64,000 bases of DNA from the human T2T-CHM13v2.0 reference genome, Homo sapiens: NCBI RefSeq assembly GCF_009914755.1, contig NC_060937.1; one strand, given 5' to 3'. Position numbers and translations under genes: made by a program. Below, piece by piece: positions 4,169 to 48,586 of the stretch. Position 1 is the first letter of the stretch; every line of letters starts with the position of its first letter. The notes beneath the pieces are model-generated. The model made no database searches. It was not told where the DNA came from and worked only from the letters and a program-made list of their open reading frames with translations.

Positions 4169-4463
4169 GGCCAGGCGTGGTGGCTCATGTCTGTAATCCC
4201 AACACTTTGGGAGGCCGAGGTGAGCGGCTCACTAAGTCAGGAGATCGAGACCATCCTGGCTAACACGGTAAAACCCCGTCTCTACTAAAAATACAAAAAA
4301 TTAGCCAGGCGTGGTGGCGGGTGCCTGTAGTCCTAGCTACTCAGGAGGCTGAGGCAGGAGAATGGCGTGAACCCGGGAGGCAGAGCTCGCAGTGAGCCAA
4401 GATCATGCCACTGCACTCCAGCCTGGGTGACAGAGCAAGACTCCGTCTCAAAAAAAAAAAAAA
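4169..4463 (+). mobile_element. AluY-like SINE
   Basis: Full dimer GGCCAGGCGTGG...CTCCGTCTC(A)n with Y-type GAGATCGAGACCATCCTGGCTAACACGG and GAATGGCGTGAACC; TSD (A)nTTCC on both sides. Confidence 0.95.
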
Positions 4464-5413
4464 TTCCTTTGTACCTATGTTATGGTGAATTTTCATGAAA
4501 AATTGACAGCTCAGAAAAACACTCTTCATAATTTAGAGTGTCTGCTCCTATAAGGAGCTCAGAGTTTAAATGAAATGCAGTTAAAATCCAAAAACATTTG
4601 TTTGTGTATTATGGAAAGGCATAATGATTGTCTACTGAGCAAGGGACTTTTTAGTTTTACTCTTCTAACATTTGTGTTCAAAGTACACTCATCAAATATT
4701 GGGTGAGGTACATACACTATGTAGTGATGTTCATTTTGGTTTATAATAAATTTAATTTACCAGCTTTAGGACATCCCTAATATTTTTAACTGAAAACACT
4801 TTTTTCAAATGAGTCTTACACCCTAGAGAACTGGGTACCCTGTATCTAACTAACTCTGTGTGCCCTGGGTCCACAGCACCTTGGACATACAAAATGTAGA
4901 TAATCAAAACAGTGCTGGGTTAAAGCTCTCTGGGCCATGGCCTGTTCGCCATGTGACACTGAATTTTGTACGTATAAAGTTCTGAACATTTTGTTTGAAC
5001 ATGCCTCTTTAATACTTGCCATTTCAATTTAATTAGAGCAAATGTTCTCAGGGTTATCATCCTCCTATCAACTTCTGGGACAAAGGCATCGAAAACATTA
5101 AGATCAGAAGAAGGGGAATATGAATTGAAGTCCACAGACTTTTATTGATTACGTACTTGGGGAAAGGCCCAGGGCCACGTGTTGGAGGATGACTAAGATA
5201 ACAAGCAGAGTTAACATTTATTGAGTACTTACTAGATGCTCAACACTGTAAGTAAAGTCAGAAGTGCCTTGCATGCATTGACTTATTAACTCTCACAATA
5301 CTAAAACGTATCGGGTTTTGCCATCTGAGGCCTTACAATCTAGGACAGCCTTCCTCTTTCCTTTCTCCTTTTTATTTCTTGCGAACGCTATCCCGCCCCA
5401 CAGAGTCAACCTG

Positions 5414-5510: not shown

Positions 5511-7595
5511 AACAGATCTGGATTTTAAAGTCTGGCTTCATTTCAGTAGGAGGCAGACTAAACAACAATAAATTTGAATTTTTATCAAAAATTATCTTCA
5601 CAGGCTTCAGAGCAGGATGCCGATCTTCTAGAATGAATGCTTCAATAAATCTGTCATTATTTTTGAATTTATTAACAAAATTGATTTTCATTTTTATCAG
5701 CATCTTAGTTTTGCTCCAGTGAACTCCTTTTCCCCTTTAAGATTCAACTGATCAAGAAGAGTGAACACCCCACCCAGAATTCTATTGTAGATACTGCAGA
5801 ATTATAGCCAAAGACATATTGCAAATTATTATATATGGTAAAAAGAAAAGTACAATGAAATATTCTTCATAACCAAAAAGCAGAGATATATTGAAACATT
5901 TTGATTATTTTTTAAAAAGTAAACCCAAGGTATCATATAAGTCCTTACACAATAAATTGTGCCTTTCCTAAAAACCAAACAAGTCAATTATTTCCATCTC
6001 TTCCCTGCCCCCCAAAATAAAACCCATTACAGGGTACTTTTTGTCTTAGTATGGAGATGACAAGCAAAGCTGGCCCTGGGGGACCACAGACAGAGCGCCC
6101 TGCAGTGGGTGCAGCCTCAGCACCTCCTCCCGGCACAGGCAGGTGACAACTGAAGGATATTCTCTTCTGGAATTTCCAAGAATTCCTGGGTCAGCTACTA
6201 CCCAGGAGGTCTGAAGCAAAATCCCACTGTTTAAGCAGAGAGGAAATTGGCAGGGGATTCCTTACAGCATGGAGAATTTCACTTCCATTACAGCACTGGC
6301 AATTCCCCTGTTAGTGAATTAGAGTGCTACATTTTGAGAGGACTGCTCCTATGTAGGTGACTGGCAGATGCAAATGTGTACCTAAAAACAAGGGATGTGT
6401 CACCCAAGAAGATACCGCTGGAAGGTGTTTCCCTCGGGCTATGGCCTCCATCCTCCTGCTTCAAGCAACAGTTAGCAGGGATTTGTCTGAGGTTTGAACA
6501 AAAGACCAGATGGGAATTCTTGCTGTCAGGCTGTGTCCCCAAATATGCAGGGCTGAAAGAAAAACAACTGCCTGCCTTTGGGCCAGATCTTCAGGGCCCC
6601 GTGGAATAAAAAAGGTTAGTTGCCTTCCTTTCCCTTTAATCAGTCCTGTGCTTTCTTCAGAAACCACATGCCACATTCTCTGGTCCATCTCGTTTTGAAA
6701 AGCACGAAAAGACTTTGAACTGCTCGGGGCCTGGCATTTGAACTCCGGTTCTTTCATCTCTTCCCTCAGAACTTGGCATACAACATGCCCTGCACTTTGC
6801 TCATTAATTCTGCTGACCAAGTAACAAGACTGGTGAAAGTTTTTTTTAAAAGTTCAGGCTCTACTTCACGTTCTCATCAGATGCCTGGGGAATAAACCGA
6901 GAGAGGTGTCGGGGGATCACATCTCCGTCGATGCTTCTGCAGCAGAGGCCGGGCCCCGATCCTATAAGCATGTACGTGCCGCAAGACCTCAGTGAGCATA
7001 CTATTCAGAGTCATCATTATTCTGGTCCTATCCTAAGCAGACTATGAAATTATACACAATTCTTACTTGGGAAATTGACAAGTTATTTAAAAAGAAACAT
7101 CACCAAGACAAAACAAAAAGCCACAGGTTCAAATGAGAATTTCTGACTGATGCAGTTCTTTTCTCCTACACCTACCTTGTCAGGATATTAAGAATCCAAG
7201 TTTCATGTCAACTTGCCTCTCATCCAGAAGCTTCACAAAGGATGAAAGCGCTTTTGACAAAAAAAAAGTTTATTTCTTTATTTGAAGATCTTGTTGAACT
7301 TAAGAAATTCACACAAATCCTTGCCCCCTTCTTTTGCTATGTGAAGGTTTGTAGAATAGAAATCCTGTGAGGAAGGTGGTCTCCTCAAATAAACAAACCC
7401 AAGAGTAAAGCAGTCCTGAGGAATCTGATCTGGGCTTAGCAGGAGACATACATCATTGACACATAAGTGCTGGGTTCATTTTTCAGACAAGGGATATATG
7501 GCTTCAGAAAATAGTGGCATGGTGCCTACTTGTATGTTAAGCACCTGAAAGATTAAAATGAATGAATTTGAGGGTGAAAGGGAAAGTTTCTAAGG

Positions 7596-8828: not shown

Positions 8829-8946
8829 CTGATTCATCGACTCTCATTTTCTTTGTAGGGCTGTCACAGTTCTCATCATCAGACATTTCCATTTCTTCTT
8901 CGCGGCGGATGCCCATGAGCTGCTCACTTTGAGCATTCCGGAGCTC
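8829..8946 (-). CDS. ENOX1: ENOX1 coding exon F (118 nt, phase 0-1): ELRNAQSEQLMGIRREEEMEMSDDENCDSPTKKMRVDES
   Basis: Acceptor tacttgcag|GAG, donor TCAG|gtaatg. Overlaps ORF 8719..8967. Confidence 0.95.
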
Positions 8947-9515: not shown

Positions 9516-12171
9516 AATGCTGGACATTATTATTTCTCATGCAAACATAGTGCCCCTGCATGTGTGTATGTGCCCATGTGTGATCACATACACACACAGG
9601 CACACACACACACCATTCAGATATCCAAAATTCAAAATTAGTAAGATGTTAGGGAACAAAACACAAACAGATGCCCTTTCTTTCGTATTGCACACGGTCA
9701 TGTTGGGGTTACTGTTTTTGTTGCAATGGTTGCTTTAGCATCACATAATTTAGAGCCACAGATCTTAAGATCACACCTTACTTTCTCCATTTATTAGGGG
9801 AGTGACTACAATCAAGTTATTTATTTGAGACTTTGTCTAGTCACTCACAAGTGAGGAATAATAATACAAGGCTGTTTACATGTAGTAGCATATGTGAAAA
9901 CTCATTGTAAAGATTAAAGAATTACACAGGAAATTTCTTACTACTGTGCCTAAAATCTGAACATTGTAATACTTATGCTAAGTATTTATATTATTATTTT
10001 GTATCAAGCTGTATATTACATATTTGTGAATTCTTCCTTATTCATTCTGTTCTCTTACATGTACTATCTTCAGAAATACTTAAAACAGGGGAAGCCTCCA
10101 TTATTCTTTTTCCCTCTGTAAAGTCTCTAAATAAAAATCAAATAGTTAAAATAATTTCATGTTATGATCAATAAACATATGAGTAATAATAAAACTAAAT
10201 TACTACAACTGATTTATTAGGGGCATGACTTGTGCCCATTTGATGGACATGCATATATCACTCCATGTTATGGGTTTTCTCCATTCTTTTCTCTCCTTAG
10301 CTCACAGATTTTAACTACAGCATGATGGAGAGGAAAGTATTTATTGCTAACAGCATTTGAATGGTCAACTCTGTACCCTGGGAATCACCCTTGCAGAAGA
10401 CAGGGAAGGGAGAAAGCAGAGAGACAAGGTCCGAGGTGGGGTGCAGGGGCACCAATCACAGGCAGCCCTGAGAGGCCAGAGGGAAGGCAGACAAGGCTCC
10501 TAATTTGATTATGCCACCCAGAATAAACAGGTGCCAATTCCATCTTAAATAACACCATCAGGCATTGGAGGTGGGTGTCACATGTGATTAGTGCGGAAAT
10601 TTTTAGGCTGTGGACAGCTAATTTTTCTACTGACAAAGAGCCCAATTCCCAAAGAGGTGGCTTAACACTTGAAACAAGGAAAAGTCAGGTGGAAAGAATA
10701 AATGAGGCTGAAAGGGACTGTTGTTTAGTCCCTGCGATTAATGACAAACTGTCATATGGTAGTTGTTCTTGTGGGAAAGGGTGGTGGAAAAGAAAAAAAA
10801 ATTGAGGAAAAAGAGCTGAGGGTGTTTCCACAGGGTGCCTCTGGTTCAGCATTAAATCACTAGTACACTCTAATAAATCTGTAGAGGTGTTGCAGATAAT
10901 TAACAGATGCTGTACATGGGAATGTGGGAAAAAATCAAGCCAATTATCAAGCTTATACGCAACTGAGAAATCATCCACAATGTTAAATTACCAACTGGTA
11001 TTTAATCAATTCAGCGACATGCAAGAGAAAATCACAGCTAATTTAGAATTCTGTGGCCTAATGTATATCAAAAGAGGTGGGGAAAGTAGCAGGAAGGCAA
11101 AAAGACCCTTCGCAGGAGCACCTTTGACAGCTGCACTCCATCTGTCCTTCTGGAGCATCATTTCTGTCTCCTAGTACCAAACAAAGCAAGCAGGCTCCTT
11201 AGACCTGCATGGAAGCCTTCACACGTCCTGCTCCCCACCACACCCACGCAGAGGAGGCAGGGTTAAGCGAAGGTGAGAAGTTGAGGCAGACATGGCAGGA
11301 AGTGTGATTCAGATCAATATGTGACATTTGCTGACACTCACATTCTAATGATGGCCTTTTTATGCTCAGGTTTATTCGGCAGCAGGCCACCAGCCTTTCT
11401 CTCAACATTCCTTTTAATCATGTTTGGTTTTTATGTGAAAAAATAAATAATTCACAGACTGATCATTCCCAAATCTGAATCATAGTTTATGGACTCCAAT
11501 TTGTGTTTTCATAACCCTCAGTTTGTCTACTGCATCACAAACAGAGGACTCTTTTTTTTTTAATCTTGAAAATCAGCCTTGACCTCAGTCTTAAGTCAGA
11601 GTCAGGGAGAACATCAGGTAAGCACCCTTCATTTTTCTGGCCCCTGAAAAATTAAAGAGAAATCCCACCTCTTCCTTACTCATAATCCTGAACAGAAAAA
11701 CAGAACTGTATCAGTCACCAACCACCGTAGGCATTAGTGAACAAACTAAAAAATGTCCTTCTTAACAATAAATTGCACTAGCATTTTAAGTGTCACATTA
11801 TTGTGAAGTCATTCGGTATTCACCATAATAACAGTGATAATAAAGAATTCATTTGGTATTCATGTGGATATTACATCTAGTGCTATTGGTATTCAACTGT
11901 AATTTAGCATTAGTTAATGGGCACTTAAAATGCTACCCAAATGATTGATATCATAGTACTTTGTGATTCCTCAAACTCTATATAAAATACTTATTTTACA
12001 AGTGTAAGCCAAAATCATTAAATAAATAAACCTTACCTTCCATAAGTTTGGGATTTTGAAAGAGGGGAATGTCATTTAGAGAACTTTAATATTAACATGC
12101 TAGAGATGGAGAGGCATCCAAATGAAAAACATTCTTTCATTAAAAAAAAGAAGCAAAGACAGTATACTTAC

Positions 12172-12863: not shown

Positions 12864-12970
12864 CTCAGAATGCTTTCGCCAAATGTCTATGTTCTTGCGC
12901 TGGGCTTTCGAGAAATGGTCCCAAGCTTTTTGTCTGGTAGAAGCGTTGAAAACGGCCACAATCTGCTCAA
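12864..12970 (-). CDS. ENOX1: ENOX1 coding exon E (107 nt, phase 1-0): FEQIVAVFNASTRQKAWDHFSKAQRKNIDIWRKHSE
   Basis: Acceptor ttcaccaaag|TT, donor GAG|gttggt. Overlaps ORF 12837..13034. Confidence 0.95.
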
Positions 12971-34100: not shown

Positions 34101-34874
34101 AAGCAGAAAACAATATAAACTAATTTAAACAGGATTTAGATTGCAGCATTATTAAAGCTATTCATGTGGAAAGAAATTAACACTGCTTGTAAAAATCACA
34201 TCAAACATGCACTTATAAAAATTCCAAATACTTTCTGTGAACATGCTCAGGCATAACTCTGAACTGGATGCAGTTTAGAAGCTAGAATGTGCAGATGTGC
34301 TTTTTCCACTATAAGAATTGAGAACGATTGGTATATGATGGAGTGAATATAAATCATTTGCTCATTAGAAATTACCCACCGTTTTCTAATCAGGTCCTCA
34401 CAATGTTAATGCACCTGAGTTAATGGACAGGTCCATTCACGGGTCTTGCCTTTTTCCCTTCCATCCGTCCGTCCCCGCTTCCTTTGCCAGAGCCCTCTTT
34501 GTTAAACAGCACGGCGTGCCTCCCTGCATCTGCTCATGCTGTGCACTTATCCTTGGGTCTCTCCCACTCCTGGTCCCCCTGGTCAGCTGTTATTCTTCCC
34601 TCAAGATTCAGCGTAAGTGCCCTTTAATAAAGAAATCTCTTCTGCAACTCTAGGATGAATTAGGTGTCTCTTTGCTATGTTTCCACAATTCCCCGCATAT
34701 CCTGCTATTAAAGCATTAGTCGCACTGTATGGTAATTGTTGGTTTACAGATCTGTCTCCAGTTTTGAGGGGCTAATATGAGAATAAAATTTCCAAAGACA
34801 TATTTCTAGACATATTTCTGTCTTCTGGTTACTCTGAGTTTTTCCCTTTGTATTTTATATTTTATTGCATTCTA

Positions 34875-41300: not shown

Positions 41301-42352
41301 AAAAATCTTATTTATTCTGCAAATTTCAAATTATGCCTCCTCTATAAAGACTTTCTTGACACTTTCATCAACATTATTTGCACTGGCCCCTGAGTCCCCA
41401 AAGCATATTGCATTTACCTTGGTTGACAATCATGCCATTGACTTGGTATTACAGTTAATTGTTTATCTGTAGACACCTACATGTGGCCACCAACTGTGAC
41501 TTACATTCTCTCATCAAATCCTGACAGTGCTCAGTGACCTCAGGAGGGTCTGACCATCATTTGCCTGTAAAATGCCCATATGTTGCTCAGCTCACACAAC
41601 TTTGGTCAGTAATAGAACTGAATTCACATGTCATCCTAACTTCAAAATCTGGCATCACTGTAGTTCACGGGGGCAGGTACCAGAGCCTTCCTATGTCTTT
41701 ATTTCCCACAGCATAAAACACCAGGGAGGGCCTCAGAAAACATTAGAAGAAATAAAACATACTCTCTTCTCTTGCTAGTCATCCTGTAAATGTTGCATGT
41801 GTCCCTTCAACTGCATCTCTGAAGACAGGGATCCCATTCTATGTTTCTTTTCTATCCTCGATGGACCCTAGTACCATGTCTGCTGTTTTGCCTGAAGAAG
41901 GCTTTAGGAGTCTGGTAAACATGCACACTCTATAGAGCTGGAGGAACACTAAGAACGCCCCACCAATGGCACAAATAGTTGCTGGCTCATTAAACACTGG
42001 GTCAGAAGATAATAGCCTGCTTTGGGGACCTTTCTGTCCCCTCATTCAGTGAGTTTTGTTGAGTGACTGTACATACACTTTTATGGAGAACATGGGTGAG
42101 CATTCTGGAAAGGGGCAGGGGTCTGTCCCAGGCAGAAGATGAAGCCCAGGTGTCTGCAGCTTCCAGGAGACCCCCCAGCTAACCCCACCCCAGCTCTGTA
42201 AAGAGTCTGTGCTTACACCAGACTCTTACAGCCTTCTTAAGGCATAGCAGACATTGTGCTGAAGGGACAATGGTGGACGCAGGAGAAACGCACAGGGTTC
42301 CGTGTCTGGGGATCCCTGTGGAGGAAGAAAAGCCAGCGTGGGTGGCCCATAC

Positions 42353-44933: not shown

Positions 44934-46284
44934 CAGTTTTCTTGGTACAGCTGTGATTAGAAGCCAGGTCCCCAGGATAGGGTTCTTGAGATAGAAAAAT
45001 CCGTCCTTCTTTATCATCATCAGGATATTTGTGTTAAAAACAACCATTTCCTGAATGGTTTCTATGTTGCAGGTGCCCTGCTAAGCACTTAATATCCATT
45101 ATTTGATTTATTCCTCCTCACAGTCCTACGAGGTCATGCTGTTACTATCTTTATTTTATAGATGAGAAAATGGAGGCAGGCTCTAGGCCGTGAAACCCAG
45201 TGCCACAAACTCACCAGAACCCCCGTTGTCTAACAGCGGATTGTGTGTTATGAAATGTCTTCATTCTAGGCTTTGTCTTCCTTCTCCATTTTGTATTGCT
45301 TTTAGTTTTTATTTTCTACTTTGTAAGGTTTTACTGAAATAAGGGGTTTTAAAGTTCTCCATATCACTGTCTACCTTAGGAAAGTCTCTGCAGTATTGGA
45401 ATAACCTCAAGTCTTCTGGAGTTTGCACAGAATTTCGTGGCAATAGAGGTGGACTGCAGAAATTAAGTAAAACCTGGCAGGAATGCTCAGATAGGTCCCC
45501 CTGCCCCTCCCCACCCCCACCCGCTACTGTTTTCCCACATTCCCCCATCAGCTTTGCCTCAGGAATAGGGAGGTGAAATGCAGAGGGACAGACTGAAAAA
45601 TGGAGGTGGGGAGTGTGAGGGAAGGGCAGTGAGTTCAGTCTGAGAATGTGTCCTTCCAAAGCCAGCCCCTAATTCTTGGGTTTGGCAAAGGCCTTGCGGA
45701 CAGACTCCATTCACTTGGCCCAATACCCACAGATGGGAAGGCAGCACTAGGCCTAATCTCAGTATCTGTAAAAATCGCCTATAAAAATTGACACCAGAGG
45801 ACAAGGCTTAATGAACCACCAACGAGGCAATGATACTGGGCCTTCTCCTAGGGCCCCTAAGCTACTTTCCTGCAAGGAACTGACCTTGCTTTGGTACCTT
45901 GGTGTCCAGAAAGTGAATCCACTTCCAAAAACCTGAAATTATTCTGAGAGAGTACTTTACTCCTCCTAAGGATTACATCCAGTAAGAATAATGGTCCTTA
46001 GTACTCATAATATTGCTTCTCATCTAATAAGCACTTGAGAACATTAATTAGAAACTCGATGGAATTCCTAAAGACTGGATGGTGGGAAATTGCTCCTGCA
46101 GTGAAGTACCTTCACAGGCTTAGCGCAGAGCTTCTGGCAGCCAAGGAAGAAGGCAGAATTCCTCCTTTTCCAGCCCCAAACTATGAAGACTTTATTTTGC
46201 ATGAAGGCCAAAGGGAATAAGCTCATATTAACATCACAAAACATAACAAAATGCCTAGAAAACTCCTTATGTAATGCAAAGTAC

Positions 46285-46491
46285 CAGAAAGGTAAATGGC
46301 TTTATCAACCATGAATTCCTCTGCAAAGCGAATGTGACAAAAATTCTTCTTGCTTTTCCGAATTGCTGTAATATCACCGCACTGTTCAAAGACTTCTTGA
46401 ATAATTTCCTCAGTAGCATTTTCTGGTAATCCTCCGACAAACACGGTCTTACACCCAGGAGGTCGTTCTCTTGTGGAAGGAGGTGGAAGAT
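46285..46491 (-). CDS. ENOX1: ENOX1 coding exon B (207 nt, phase 1-1), RRM core with RNP2 VFVGGL and RNP1-like KNFCHIRF
   Basis: Acceptor attattag|AT, donor TCTG|gtactt. Overlaps ORF 46223..46444. Confidence 0.96.
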
Positions 46492-46942
46492 CTAATAATC
46501 ACAACAAAACAGAAAGTTTTATCTTTCATTTATTTGCTTTCTCTGGTTCTCCTGGCAAAACTAAAGCTTGCAGAGTAACTTTCTCCAGACTGAGTGACGG
46601 TAAATTTCTATGCCAACTTACATTGATCCCAGGCTGTCTTGTTTCTAAGTTCCTCTCCCCTCCTGCTCCCAACCTTTACTTTCTGTGTTCATTGCTACAC
46701 AGAGTGGCTATATGCTTGTCCATGAACAAAGATAAAGCAAATGTTTGCATAATTTCATTTCTCCTTTATACTACAGAAGCCCAGAAAAGGGAGGGAAAAA
46801 ACTTCCCAAAGTACAAAACATGACGAAATGACAACATGATGAAAAACCTCAGCGTGTTATCTGCTTTGTCTTGTTTCCAGATAAAGGAGCGGCAAAACAG
46901 AATACGGGAAGCATAACCTACAAAAGCACGCACAATACTTAC

Positions 46943-46962
46943 TTGGCTGTGAAACACCGGGC
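46943..46962 (-). other. ENOX1: Candidate ENOX1 alternative microexon (4 nt CCAA at 46943-46946, or 20 nt with the upstream acceptor)
   Basis: Minus strand reads ggtttttttcag|GCCCGGTGTTTCACAG|CCAA|gtaagtattg: two tandem CAG acceptors and a consensus GTAAGT donor. Confidence 0.7.
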
Positions 46963-47713
46963 CTGAAAAAAACCACTTTGTTATTATTCACATTTAAATG
47001 AGCAAACTATTAAATTTTGGGAAGGCTGTATAAAAAGATACAATGTACACTCTCACAATATTTTACCTAGTTTATATGTAGATTACTAAAGCAATCTCCT
47101 GAAAAGTCCACTTAAAAAAGGCAACACTGATTAATATGAATGACAAAAAAAAAAAAAAAAGTCCTAGCTCTTTTAGCCCATAAACTTAGTATCTGAGGCA
47201 AAATTAAAAAAATAAAATTCTGGCCCATTTACTTCATCAAATGTATGTTTCCTTCAAGCAAATACAATTTGGTCCAGAAACTCTGAGATGCAGGCTTCCC
47301 TCTCCCCAGCCCCCAAATTGCTAACTGTCAAATTAATTCCATTTTCCATCTAGCAAAACATATTTCAGAGTTTTTCACCCACATTTGTGAAGATGGATGG
47401 AAATGCTCACATATTTCACACTGTGTTCTCCGGCAAACACTAGGCTTCACTACATGCAAAAAGTCTTAACGCTGGATACACATCCCTAAATCCCACATAC
47501 TGGCTTTATAGTGTGGATTCAGCTTCTGGACAGACACGTGGCCACATCCCTGTATATTTATTGTAACCTAGAGACAAAAGGCCTTCTGTAGAACGGATCC
47601 CCACTCTGTGCATTTACGTGTGAGTCACATCTGAAAATGACTGCAATGCCATTTTAAAATTTAAAAAGAAAAACATTTAAAATGAGCAAATATTTCTCAT
47701 AGGTGTTACTTAC

Positions 47714-47887
47714 TTGGATTTTGAGGAAAAAGAGTACAGCTTTTGCAGTGGATTATTTCTTTGACAACAGCCACTTCTGTTGGTGGTGGGGGAGGTACCA
47801 GTCCAAGGCCTGGTATCATTGGGTTAATGGGGGTGATTCCAGTCATCATGTTGAGGCTTGGATCAAAGCCTGGGACACAGATTGAGT
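47714..47887 (-). CDS. ENOX1: ENOX1 coding exon A (174 nt, phase 1-1): (D)SICVPGFDPSLNMMTGITPINPMIPGLGLVPPPPPTEVAVVKEIIHCKSCTLFPQNP
   Basis: Minus strand: acceptor tttacag|AC, donor CCAA|gtaagt. Translated by hand (not in the ORF track). Joins exon B in frame (A|AT = Asn). Confidence 0.95.
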
Positions 47888-48586
47888 CTGTAAAGTATAC
47901 AAGATAACATTTTGACTGGAGATTAAATCCATTTTTGTTGTTGTTTTTGCCATTTTCCTGTGGATTATTTGACTTTATACTTTCTATTTTTCAGGAATTT
48001 CTCCTGGCATAAGATATAATATTATAGAAAGCTATGCCAGAAGGGTAAAGAGAAAAAAAGTAAAAGATGAACATTAAACTACATGAAAAGGAAATTATAT
48101 TACTTAAAATATTAACATGGCAGAAAGAACACAGCATATTAAAATGTAAAAGCATGCACCATGAAGCTTCACTATTACTGTGAATGCAATTTTCTATTTC
48201 TTAACGTTGGTGTATTGTTTATACCACCTTATGACCCAGAATATGGGAAGAATATCATTTAACACTGAAGTGCTCTGTGAATCTAATTGTCAACGTGGTT
48301 TCATCAAAAGAGCCTTCTTACCCAAGTGACCTAGATTTAGGAAAGTTCAATTTATATGTGCATACTTTATAATGATGTATTCAGGTCCCACCTAACCTAT
48401 TTCCCCTGGAATAAAAAAAAAAAAAAAGCAAAACAAAGAGTGATTACAATTACTATGGCTGGGTTAGATACATGCAGGCATAAAATTAGCTATATACATT
48501 TCTGGCTTCTATTGGATAATTGCACTTTCTTCCTATAATTTAGTCAACAAAGAATTGACCCACCCTTTTGAAATCTTTATGCCCTG

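What the first reader, a model, noticed from the sequence alone, without database searches (positions are those of the whole stretch)
46937..46975. Hidden 4-nt/20-nt frame-shifting microexon immediately upstream of the RRM exon
Seen: in the 1.2-kb intron between exons A and B the minus strand reads ggtttttttcag|GCCCGGTGTTTCACAG|CCAA|gtaagtattg. That is a consensus donor with two possible acceptors, giving a 4-nt exon (46943-46946) or a 20-nt exon (46943-46962), plus a CTCAT branch-like motif near 46999. The 4-nt exon CCAA is identical to the last 4 nt of exon A (CCAA|gtaagt), so inclusion would look to an aligner like a CCAACCAA insertion. The 4-nt form gives ...QNP-TKSSTSFHKRTTSWV* (TAA at 46449-46451), stopping before RNP2. 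The 20-nt form enters the third frame (next finding). Established: neural microexons are SRRM3/4-regulated and mostly frame-preserving, so a frame-breaking one is unusual. Inference: a three-way switch between full-length ENOX1 and RRM-less or NMD products. I recall a tiny deeply conserved ENOX-family microexon being mentioned in microexon work but cannot verify it, so novelty needs checking.
Basis: partly seen in the sequence, partly recalled or inferred. Interest (0 to 1): 0.9.

Follow-up and report, generated by a model that had tools for sequence, protein, structure and literature searches.

The report
Splice-like decoy site in ENOX1 intron
A very strong splice-donor look-alike with a usable acceptor sits in the ENOX1 intron before the RNA-binding exon, but nothing available shows it is spliced in, so it is more likely a docking or decoy site than a hidden coding exon.

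Summary
The string is real and placed as described. On the ENOX1 sense (minus) strand it reads tttttttcag|GCCCGGTGTTTCACAG|CCAA|gtaagtat. The 20-nt unit is 46943-46962 and the 4-nt unit is 46943-46946. The frame consequences are as stated, and both forms end in premature stops.

The donor is the best U1 match on the sense strand of the window, at 10 of 11. As a bare motif it is within chance: 15.5% of 200 shuffles give an equal site with an acceptor.

I found no sign of use:
- It is absent from RefSeq's 31 transcripts (hub table).
- No ENOX1 microexon is in print.
- ENOX1 is absent from the supplements of four splicing papers.
- ENOX2 has no counterpart.
- There is no UGC before either AG.

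RNA-seq and cross-species alignments were out of reach.

The site is still not ordinary:
- It lies in one of three CpG-retaining patches.
- It copies exon A's donor 11-mer.
- It has a rare 16-mer twin at 7055-7070.
- ENOX1 is already known to be tuned by conserved pseudo-5' splice sites (PMC13100119).

Best reading (0.4): a U1-docking pseudo-5' splice site or decoy poison micro-exon. The 4-nt form is unlikely.

The parts
46943..46962 (-). Candidate 20-nt pseudo/poison micro-exon GCCCGGTGTTTCACAGCCAA
   Evidence: Inclusion shifts the frame by +2, gives an 81-residue out-of-frame tail and stops at TAG 42571-42569.
46943..46946 (-). Candidate 4-nt form CCAA (second acceptor, cacag|)
   Evidence: Shifts the frame by +1, with a stop at TAA 46451-46449. 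Its acceptor has 8 of 12 pyrimidines and a longest run of 4, and lies 16 nt behind a better AG.
46935..46945 (-). U1-complementary site CAA|GTAAGTAT (positions -3 to +8)
   Evidence: Matches 10 of 11 positions of CAGGTAAGTAT. It is the single best of 7 sites with at least 9 of 11 on the sense strand of the 64-kb window. The six annotated donors score 6-9 of 11.
46963..46972 (-). Pyrimidine tract plus AG of the 20-nt form (TTTTTTTCAG)
   Evidence: 9 of 12 pyrimidines at -3..-14 and a run of 8, the longest run among the eight acceptors compared.
46980..46986 (-). TAATAAC, best branch-point candidate (A at 46981, 18 nt before the AG)
   Evidence: This is inference from the yUnAy consensus (established knowledge).
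46998..47002 (-).
   Evidence: An AG at 46977-46976 lies between it and the cag acceptor.
46819..46963 (.). CpG-retaining patch (6 CpG: 46824, 46853, 46890, 46905, 46929, 46958)
   Evidence: One of only 3 non-exon, non-listed-repeat loci with at least 6 CpG per 140 nt (0.34% of 55,111 windows). Local CpG observed/expected is 0.75-0.86 against 0.19 for the window.
46820..46845 (-). Cluster of four UCAU, 100-120 nt downstream of the donor
   Evidence: At least 4 YCAY in 45 nt occurs in 0.74% of windows (28 loci in the window). Reading this as a NOVA-type cluster is recalled knowledge and was not tested.
47707..47717 (-). End of exon A plus its donor, CCAA|GTAAGTA, identical 11-mer
7055..7070 (-). 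Twin 16-mer CCAAGTAAGAATTGTG (15 of 16 identical to 46946-46931), with no acceptor upstream
   Evidence: The pattern with one free position has 7 matches in the whole 3.1-Gb genome, and 2 of them are here. It abuts the CpG patch 6811-7065.

Best explanation
The element is an intronic docking site for U1 snRNP, that is, a pseudo-5' splice site. Together with the pyrimidine tract and AG 20 nt upstream it forms a decoy or poison micro-exon in the intron before the RRM exon. This is intron 6 if the 107-nt exon is exon 10.

Shown: the site has the best U1 complementarity in the window, the acceptor is usable, and both inclusion forms end in premature stops.

Inferred: U1, and at times U2AF/U2, engages here without productive splicing and competes with the identical authentic donor of exon A 772 nt upstream. 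This would slow or divert removal of the intron. When the unit is spliced in, it is as the 20-nt form, which gives a transcript with a stop far upstream of later junctions, so an NMD substrate. The net effect would be to lower productive ENOX1 mRNA. The model is the published U1-dependent pseudo-5' splice site downstream of the 107-nt exon of the same gene.
For: - The site matches U1 at 10 of 11 positions, the best of 7 sites with at least 9 of 11 on the sense strand. The annotated donors score 6-9 of 11.
- Its 11-mer is identical to exon A's donor, and that 11-mer occurs only at these two places in the window.
- It lies inside one of three CpG-retaining patches.
- A 15-of-16 twin at 7070-7055 lies on the same strand and at the edge of another of the three patches. 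Only 7 matches of the pattern exist genome-wide. The 38-nt local alignment of the two regions is reached by 1 of 300 shuffles. The twin has no acceptor, which points to the U1 site rather than an exon as the shared feature.
- PMC13100119 shows that an ENOX1 pseudo-5' splice site silences the upstream exon through U1 core proteins (sections 9 and 10). Its Supplementary Data 1 lists 4 vertebrate-conserved pseudo-5' splice sites in ENOX1, all inside this window.
- That screen could not have seen this site: no 7-mer with A at -1 occurs in its supplementary files.
- The stops are confirmed.
- No annotated transcript uses the site (hub table).
- A sheep gene model (P0120) uses the same donor, reading PAVSQP|N where human reads PGVSQP|N.
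Against: - The motif alone is within chance: 15.5% of 200 shuffles.
- All the context statistics were noticed after the fact.
- CpG retention is only a proxy for constraint and could equally mark a hypomethylated enhancer. The known conserved site at 12032 is not in such a patch.
- No U1 binding data, no junction counts and no cross-species alignment could be obtained.
- ENOX2 has no counterpart: 0 sites with at least 9 of 11 in its 9.7-kb locus, and no alignment of the region.
- blastn rates the twin similarity at only E = 0.29.
- P0120 is an error-laden model and a single species, and five of six residues kept is compatible with neutral drift.
- The RNA fold is unremarkable (z = 0.16).
Confidence: 0.4

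Rival explanations
1. It is a chance pseudo-exon with no function. Long introns carry many strong donor look-alikes, and this one happens to have an acceptor nearby. It is ignored by the spliceosome or spliced only at noise level.
For: - Sites this strong with an acceptor arise in 15.5% of 200 shuffled windows. Sites with at least 9 of 11 matches: 7 observed against 5.8 expected.
- PMC13100119 counts 578,872 pseudo-5' splice sites in human introns (section 6).
- There is no annotation (hub table), no literature, no paralogue counterpart and no structure.
- A further pseudo-exon lies in the same intron (46622-46770, GTAAGT at 46621).
Against: - It coincides with one of three CpG-retaining patches.
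- It shares an 11-mer with the neighbouring real donor.
- 2 of the 7 genome-wide copies of the 16-mer pattern lie in this one 64-kb window, on the same strand.
Confidence: 0.35
2. It is a real, regulated 20-nt poison cassette exon, perhaps neuronal and enhanced by the downstream UCAU cluster. Its inclusion sends ENOX1 mRNA to NMD before the RRM is translated. This would be a second NMD-coupled control point beside the 107-nt exon.
For: - The donor, acceptor and branch candidate are all good.
- The stop lies 216 nt before the next junction.
- Four UCAU lie 100-120 nt downstream.
- There is a CpG-retaining downstream flank, as seen next to regulated exons.
- ENOX1/Anw is an RRM splicing regulator whose level is proposed to be set by alternative splicing coupled to NMD (PMC12464824 section 27).
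- RefSeq seldom models NMD isoforms and aligners miss small exons (established knowledge).
Against: - It is in none of the 31 RefSeq transcripts (hub table).
- ENOX1 is not in the supplements searched for Li 2015 (5 of 6 files), the MicroExonator paper (7 files), the cryptic poison exon paper (1 file) or the NOVA NMD-exon paper (2 files).
- The only proteins that read the RRM exon in the +2 frame are 3 genomic read-through ORFs.
- In the sheep model the codon at the cag acceptor is GCN, not AGG, so the acceptor may be missing there (amino-acid level only).
- There is no UGC or GCAUG nearby.
Confidence: 0.15
3. The CpG-retaining patch is a conserved or hypomethylated DNA element, such as part of the intragenic enhancer annotated next door, or an exapted old repeat. 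On this reading the splice-like string inside it is incidental.
For: - A RefSeq enhancer feature at 45945-46530 lies about 290 nt away (hub table).
- CpG retention fits hypomethylation as well as it fits constraint on RNA.
- The stretch GCCC..CACAGC.AGTAAGT resembles the antisense core of an old SINE. This is recalled only and was not tested.
Against: - The region is single-copy in the genome search.
- There is no significant similarity to any other part of the window, listed repeats included.
- There is no Rfam family.
- This reading does not explain the identity with exon A's donor.
Confidence: 0.07
4. One reading: the 4-nt exon CCAA is also used, giving a three-way switch.
For: cacag|CCAA|gtaagt is present, and the frame consequence is correct.
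Against: - From the only good branch candidate, the first AG at a usable distance is the cag at 46964-46963. The second AG lies 16 nt further on, behind GCCCGGTG, with a pyrimidine run of 4.
- 0 of the 120 inspected ENOX1 proteins carry the 4-nt signature.
- A 4-nt exon leaves no room for U1 and U2AF together (established knowledge).
Confidence: 0.03

Closest known systems
Ultraconserved pseudo-5' splice site of ENOX1/Enox (Ding et al., Nat Commun 2026, PMC13100119); in this window AGGTAAG at 12038-12032
   Same: It is in the same gene and on the same strand. It is an intronic 5'-splice-site look-alike several hundred nt downstream of an alternatively spliced exon: about 830 nt there and 772 nt downstream of exon A here. 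Exon A is skipped in 4 of the 120 vertebrate ENOX1 proteins inspected. The proposed action is the same: U1 binds without splicing.
   Different: That site has G at -1, was shown to be conserved (phyloP 4.79 in the paper's table), is never spliced, and acts as a silencer in minigenes and flies. This one has A at -1 and so was outside that screen. It has an acceptor 20 nt upstream. It has no conservation, binding or functional data.
AS-NMD control of ENOX1/anw through the 107-nt ultraconserved exon (12864-12970)
   Same: It is a frame-breaking splicing choice in the same gene, proposed to set protein level through NMD (PMC12464824 section 27).
   Different: There the harmful event is skipping of a constitutive-type coding exon. 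Here it would be inclusion of an extra 20 nt. The 107-nt exon is documented, and this unit is not.
SRRM3/4-dependent neural microexons
   Same: [quoted passage not shown]
   Different: This unit breaks the frame. It has no UGC between the pyrimidine tract and the AG (the motif is recalled). ENOX1 is absent from the microexon supplements I could search.
Poison exons of SR and hnRNP genes, and decoy exons in retained introns
   Same: The host gene is an RNA-binding protein gene, the unit lies just before the RNA-binding domain, and a premature stop follows inclusion. The poison exon concept is as cited in PMC12464824. Decoy exons are recalled from the literature and were not read here.
   Different: Those exons are mostly 50-300 nt, have transcript evidence and lie in highly conserved blocks. 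Here neither transcript evidence nor conservation could be shown.

Membership tests
SRRM3/4-dependent neural microexon | Exon of 3-27 nt flanked by AG and GT | tested here: met
   20 nt or 4 nt.
SRRM3/4-dependent neural microexon | UGC motif between the pyrimidine tract and the 3' AG (recalled from the SRRM4 literature) | tested here: not met
   The nearest TGC upstream is at 47004, 40 nt before the first AG. There is none before the second AG.
SRRM3/4-dependent neural microexon | Neural-specific inclusion in RNA-seq that depends on SRRM4 | not testable with these tools
   No RNA-seq access. ENOX1 is not in the supplements of Li 2015 (5 of 6 files) or the MicroExonator paper (7 files). Irimia 2014 is not held.
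Poison (NMD-coupled) cassette exon | Inclusion creates a stop more than 50 nt upstream of a later exon junction | tested here: met
   4-nt form: the stop lies 164 nt before the end of the RRM exon. 20-nt form: the stop lies 216 nt before the end of the next exon. The 50-nt rule is as worded in the abstract of PMC13187750 (listing).
Poison (NMD-coupled) cassette exon | Transcripts that contain the exon, rising when NMD is blocked | not testable with these tools
   None in RefSeq's 31 transcripts (hub table). Only 3 genomic read-through ORFs read the RRM exon in the +2 frame.
Poison (NMD-coupled) cassette exon | High sequence conservation of the exon and its flanks | tested here: inconclusive
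   There is no alignment tool. Proxies: CpG retention; one sheep model keeps PAVSQP|N against human PGVSQP|N; ENOX2 has no counterpart.
Conserved pseudo-5' splice site (Ding et al. 2026) | Intronic sequence that passes their 7-nt 5'-splice-site matrix (log odds above 6) | tested here: not met
   The 7-mer here is AAGTAAG. No 7-mer with A at -1 (AAGTAAG, CAGTAAG or their complements) occurs in the three supplementary files. By U1 complementarity, however, the site scores 10 of 11.
Conserved pseudo-5' splice site (Ding et al. 2026) | No splice junction at the site (GTEx) and phyloP above 2 in 100 vertebrates | not testable with these tools
   The method is in section 16. Neither data set is available here.
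Conserved pseudo-5' splice site (Ding et al. 2026) | Lies within about 1.5 kb of used splice sites, in an intron flanking an alternative exon | tested here: met
   It is 772 nt from exon A's donor and 451 nt from the RRM exon. Forms that skip exon A are annotated in 4 of the 120 inspected vertebrate proteins.
Recursive splice site / RS-exon | AG directly followed by GT, so that a 5' splice site is rebuilt after the first step | tested here: not met
   The first acceptor is followed by GCCC and the second by CCAA. The intron is only 1,222 nt.

The most novel reading that the evidence does not exclude
ENOX1 carries a second kind of U1-sensing element that the published screen missed because it has A at -1. 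This is the extended motif CCAAGUAAG(U/A)AUUGUG, present twice in its introns (46946-46931 and 7070-7055). Each copy heads a CpG-retaining block, and the motif mimics the real donor of exon A. The copy studied here would double as the donor of a 20-nt poison exon just before the RRM. U1 availability, already linked to TOR/insulin signalling for this gene, would then gate production of the RNA-binding form at a second point.
Probability: 0.15. Interest if true: 0.6.

Novelty: new member of a known kind. Interest (0 to 1): 0.35.

Why it matters
ENOX1/Anw has recently been recast as a nuclear RRM splicing regulator whose dose matters, and a 7-9-nt intronic U1 site in it has been shown to tune development in flies. 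A second U1-docking site or poison micro-exon immediately upstream of the RRM exon would add a control point to that circuit. It would also show that motif screens requiring G at -1 miss functional decoys. If instead it is an unused pseudo-exon, the finding is ordinary. It still marks a place where a deep-intronic variant, or a splice-modifying drug that favours A at -1, could create a frame-breaking exon.

Tried and rejected
- **Paralogue test.** The ENOX2 intron (9.1 kb, L006) has no exact sub-strings, no blastn alignment over the region and 0 sites with at least 9 of 11 U1 matches.
- **Cross-species DNA.** None could be obtained. Scans of genome contigs and viral contigs with the RRM exon, and of genome contigs with a 21-nt pattern, found nothing.
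- **Protein databases used as a proxy for other species.**
  - The 73-residue stop-to-stop ORF over the site has no homologue and only one spurious weak hit (P0005, E = 9.3e-5).
  - The +2 frame of the RRM exon finds 3 ORFs that are genomic read-through and reach only human 46270-46750.
- **RNA gene or structure.** No Rfam match at E up to 1 in 46200-47950. The fold of 46900-47010 has z = 0.16.
- **Repeat origin.** The region is single-copy in the genome search. There are no significant hits in the window by blastn or nhmmer (best non-self E = 0.78 at 42017-41963).
- **Drug-responsive ENOX1 exons.** The branaplam/PTC518-responsive exons lie elsewhere, at hg19 44.13 and 44.20 Mb.
- **Frame rescue.** +20 nt combined with skipping of the 107-nt exon nets -87 nt, but the stretch between has stops.
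- **ENOX1 self-binding.** The recalled HRKACAG motif occurs once, at 47032, and not in the unit.
- **Papers with only incidental ENOX1 mentions.** PMC12271549, PMC5954162, PMC2898759, PMC12108834, PMC7190674 and PMC9723627 (passages only).
- **Not available.** PMC4390143 and PMC4371929 are not held.

Full report
**Observation.** Reading the minus strand and indexing it confirms the string ...aataataacaaagtggtttttttcag|GCCCGGTGTTTCACAG|CCAA|gtaagtattgtg. AG dinucleotides lie at 46964-46963 and 46948-46947, and the GT at 42-41. The 20-nt unit is therefore 46943-46962 and the 4-nt unit 46943-46946. Both lie in the 1,222-nt intron between exon A (47714-47887) and the RRM exon (46285-46491). The 11-mer CCAAGTAAGTA occurs at two places on the sense strand of the window: exon A's end plus donor, and here. 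TAATAAC at 46986-46980 places an A 18 nt before the cag and is the better branch candidate (consensus from established knowledge).

**Consequences.** I spliced the annotated exons in silico.
- The 4-nt form gives ...QNPTKSSTSFHKRTTSWV* with TAA at 46451-46449, 164 nt before the end of the RRM exon.
- The 20-nt form gives an 81-residue out-of-frame tail and stops at TAG 42571-42569, 216 nt before the next junction.
- Both are therefore predicted NMD substrates.
- The +2 frame of the RRM exon is the only stop-free frame among the 12 alternative exon frames of the six exons. This is a mild oddity.

**Strength and chance.**
- Donor: scored against CAGGTAAGTAT, the site matches 10 of 11 positions. 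It is the best of 7 sites with at least 9 of 11 on the sense strand, and the six annotated donors score 6-9.
- Acceptors: the cag acceptor has 9 of 12 pyrimidines and the longest pyrimidine run (8) of the eight acceptors compared. The cacag acceptor has 8 of 12 and a run of 4.
- Chance: in 200 dinucleotide shuffles, sites with at least 10 of 11 occur 0.455 times per window, and 0.17 times with an acceptor-like site. 15.5% of shuffles have at least one.
- The motif alone is therefore not beyond chance.

**Evidence of use.**
- The hub table lists no exon here in any of RefSeq's 31 transcripts.
- Full-text searches gave no paper on an ENOX1 microexon:
  - ENOX1 with microexon: 3 papers, 2 listed, both incidental.
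  - ENOX1 with micro-exon: 2 papers.
  - ENOX1 with cassette exon: 2 papers.
  - ENOX1 with nonsense-mediated: 10 papers, 8 listed.
- ENOX1 is absent from the supplements I could search:
  - Li 2015: 5 of 6 files.
  - The MicroExonator paper: 7 files.
  - The conserved cryptic poison exon paper: 1 file.
  - The NOVA NMD-exon paper: 2 files.
- Long files may have been cut when stored, and some tables may list coordinates rather than gene names. Irimia 2014 and Yan 2015 are not held.
- As a proxy for transcripts, I searched the +2 translation of the RRM exon against 5.8 billion proteins.
  - It found 3 hits, all ORFs read straight through genomic DNA of other mammals and covering only human 46270-46750.
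  - That database does hold spliced ENOX1 products. The canonical translation finds 1,575 proteins, of which the best 120 were inspected.
  - 100 of the 120 have the usual junction ...FP(Q/P)NPN|LPPPST.
  - 4 skip exon A (reptiles and a frog).
  - 7 read intron into the exon unspliced.
  - 0 show the 4-nt signature.
  - One, a sheep 'hypothetical protein' with other model errors (P0120), joins ...LALTAPAVSQP to NLPPPST. That is the same donor, and human reads PGVSQP|N in that frame.
  - In that model the codon at the cag is GCN where human has AGG, so the acceptor of the 20-nt form may be absent in sheep. This is at the amino-acid level and for one species only.

**Conservation proxies.**
- ENOX2 (chrX; exons located; intron fetched) has no counterpart.
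- Within the window, 46819-46963 holds 6 CpG. It is one of only three non-exon, non-listed-repeat loci with at least 6 CpG per 140 nt, or 0.34% of 55,111 windows. Its CpG observed/expected ratio is 0.75-0.86 against 0.19 overall.
- This fits purifying selection or germline hypomethylation, but it does not prove conservation.

**An unexpected twin.**
- CCAAGTAAGAATTGTG at 7070-7055 differs at one base from CCAAGTAAGTATTGTG at 46946-46931. It lies on the same strand and abuts another of the three CpG patches (6811-7065).
- The pattern with one free position has 7 matches in the 3.1-Gb genome, and the reversed control also has 7. Two of the 7 lie in this window.
- The local alignment of the two regions (38 nt) is reached by 1 of 300 shuffles, although blastn gives E = 0.29.
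- The twin has no acceptor.
- These statistics are post hoc.

**Gene context.**
- PMC13100119 (abstract; sections 6, 7, 9, 10 and 16; supplements searched) shows that a pseudo-5' splice site downstream of the 107-nt exon of ENOX1/Enox is conserved across animals, is never spliced, binds U1 and silences the upstream exon.
- I mapped its four ENOX1 entries to window positions 2309, 12032, 30778 and 30899.
- Its matrix admits no 7-mer with A at -1, so it could not have scored this site.
- PMC12464824 (passages and section 27) recasts ENOX1/Anw as a nuclear RRM splicing regulator controlled by alternative splicing and NMD of the 107-nt exon.

**Mechanism.**
- Most likely (0.4): a U1-docking pseudo-5' splice site that forms a decoy or poison micro-exon with the cag acceptor. 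U1 binding here would compete with the identical exon A donor and hamper intron removal. Occasional inclusion would be of the 20-nt form and lead to NMD. Shown: the sequence features and the stops. Inferred: binding, competition and selection.
- Rivals: a functionless chance pseudo-exon (0.35), a truly regulated 20-nt poison exon (0.15), an incidental motif in a DNA element or old repeat (0.07), and the full three-way switch with the 4-nt exon (0.03).
- The SRRM4 model lacks its UGC (the motif is recalled). A UCAU cluster 100-120 nt downstream would fit NOVA-type enhancement, but this is recalled knowledge and untested.

**Verdict.** The interpretation cannot be decided here, and the tests that could be run lean against a used microexon. 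If functional, the element is a new member of known kinds (pseudo-5' splice site or poison exon). Interest is moderate to low (0.35). The decisive data are junction reads, multi-species alignment, a repeat call and U1 crosslinking.

Noticed in passing
window 12032-12038 (-), with 2309, 30778, 30899: The published ultraconserved pseudo-5' splice site of ENOX1 (AGGTAAG) lies in this window, about 830 nt downstream of the 107-nt exon 12864-12970. All four vertebrate-conserved ENOX1 pseudo-5' splice sites of PMC13100119 Supplementary Data 1 map into the window. They give the offset hg19 = window + 43,887,690.
   Followed up: yes
window 7055-7070 (-) and 6811-7065: There is a twin of the finding's donor motif (15 of 16 nt), with no acceptor upstream. 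It heads a GC-rich patch retaining 6 or more CpG, about 1.76 kb downstream of exon 8829-8946 and about 1.65 kb upstream of the alternative exon 4446-5410. Rfam gives only sub-threshold hits.
   Followed up: partly
window 34373-34579: This is the third CpG-retaining, non-exon, non-listed-repeat patch of the window. It is purine-rich on the sense strand. Its nature is unknown.
   Followed up: no
window 47714-47887 (exon A, 174 nt, in frame): Isoforms that skip exon A (QQLV(T/S)D|LPPPST) are annotated in three lizards or geckos and a frog (P0057, P0060, P0064, P0123). That is 4 of the 120 ENOX1 proteins inspected. Exon A may therefore be an alternative cassette exon.
   Followed up: partly
window 46285-46491 (RRM exon), +2 frame: This is the only stop-free frame among the 12 alternative frames of the six exons. 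The same frame is open through the exon in three other mammals' genomic ORFs (P0002-P0004). These were found precisely because they are open, so the comparison is biased.
   Followed up: partly
window 46622-46770 (-): A second pseudo-exon of 149 nt lies in the same intron. It has a strong pyrimidine tract (ccttttctgggcttctgtag) and a GTAAGT donor at 46621.
   Followed up: no
window 41963-42017 (-): This is the best non-self nhmmer match to the finding's region (E = 0.78). It shares CCC.GTGTTT.A..AGCCA..TATT.GTGC and is not significant. It could hint at an old repeat family.
   Followed up: no
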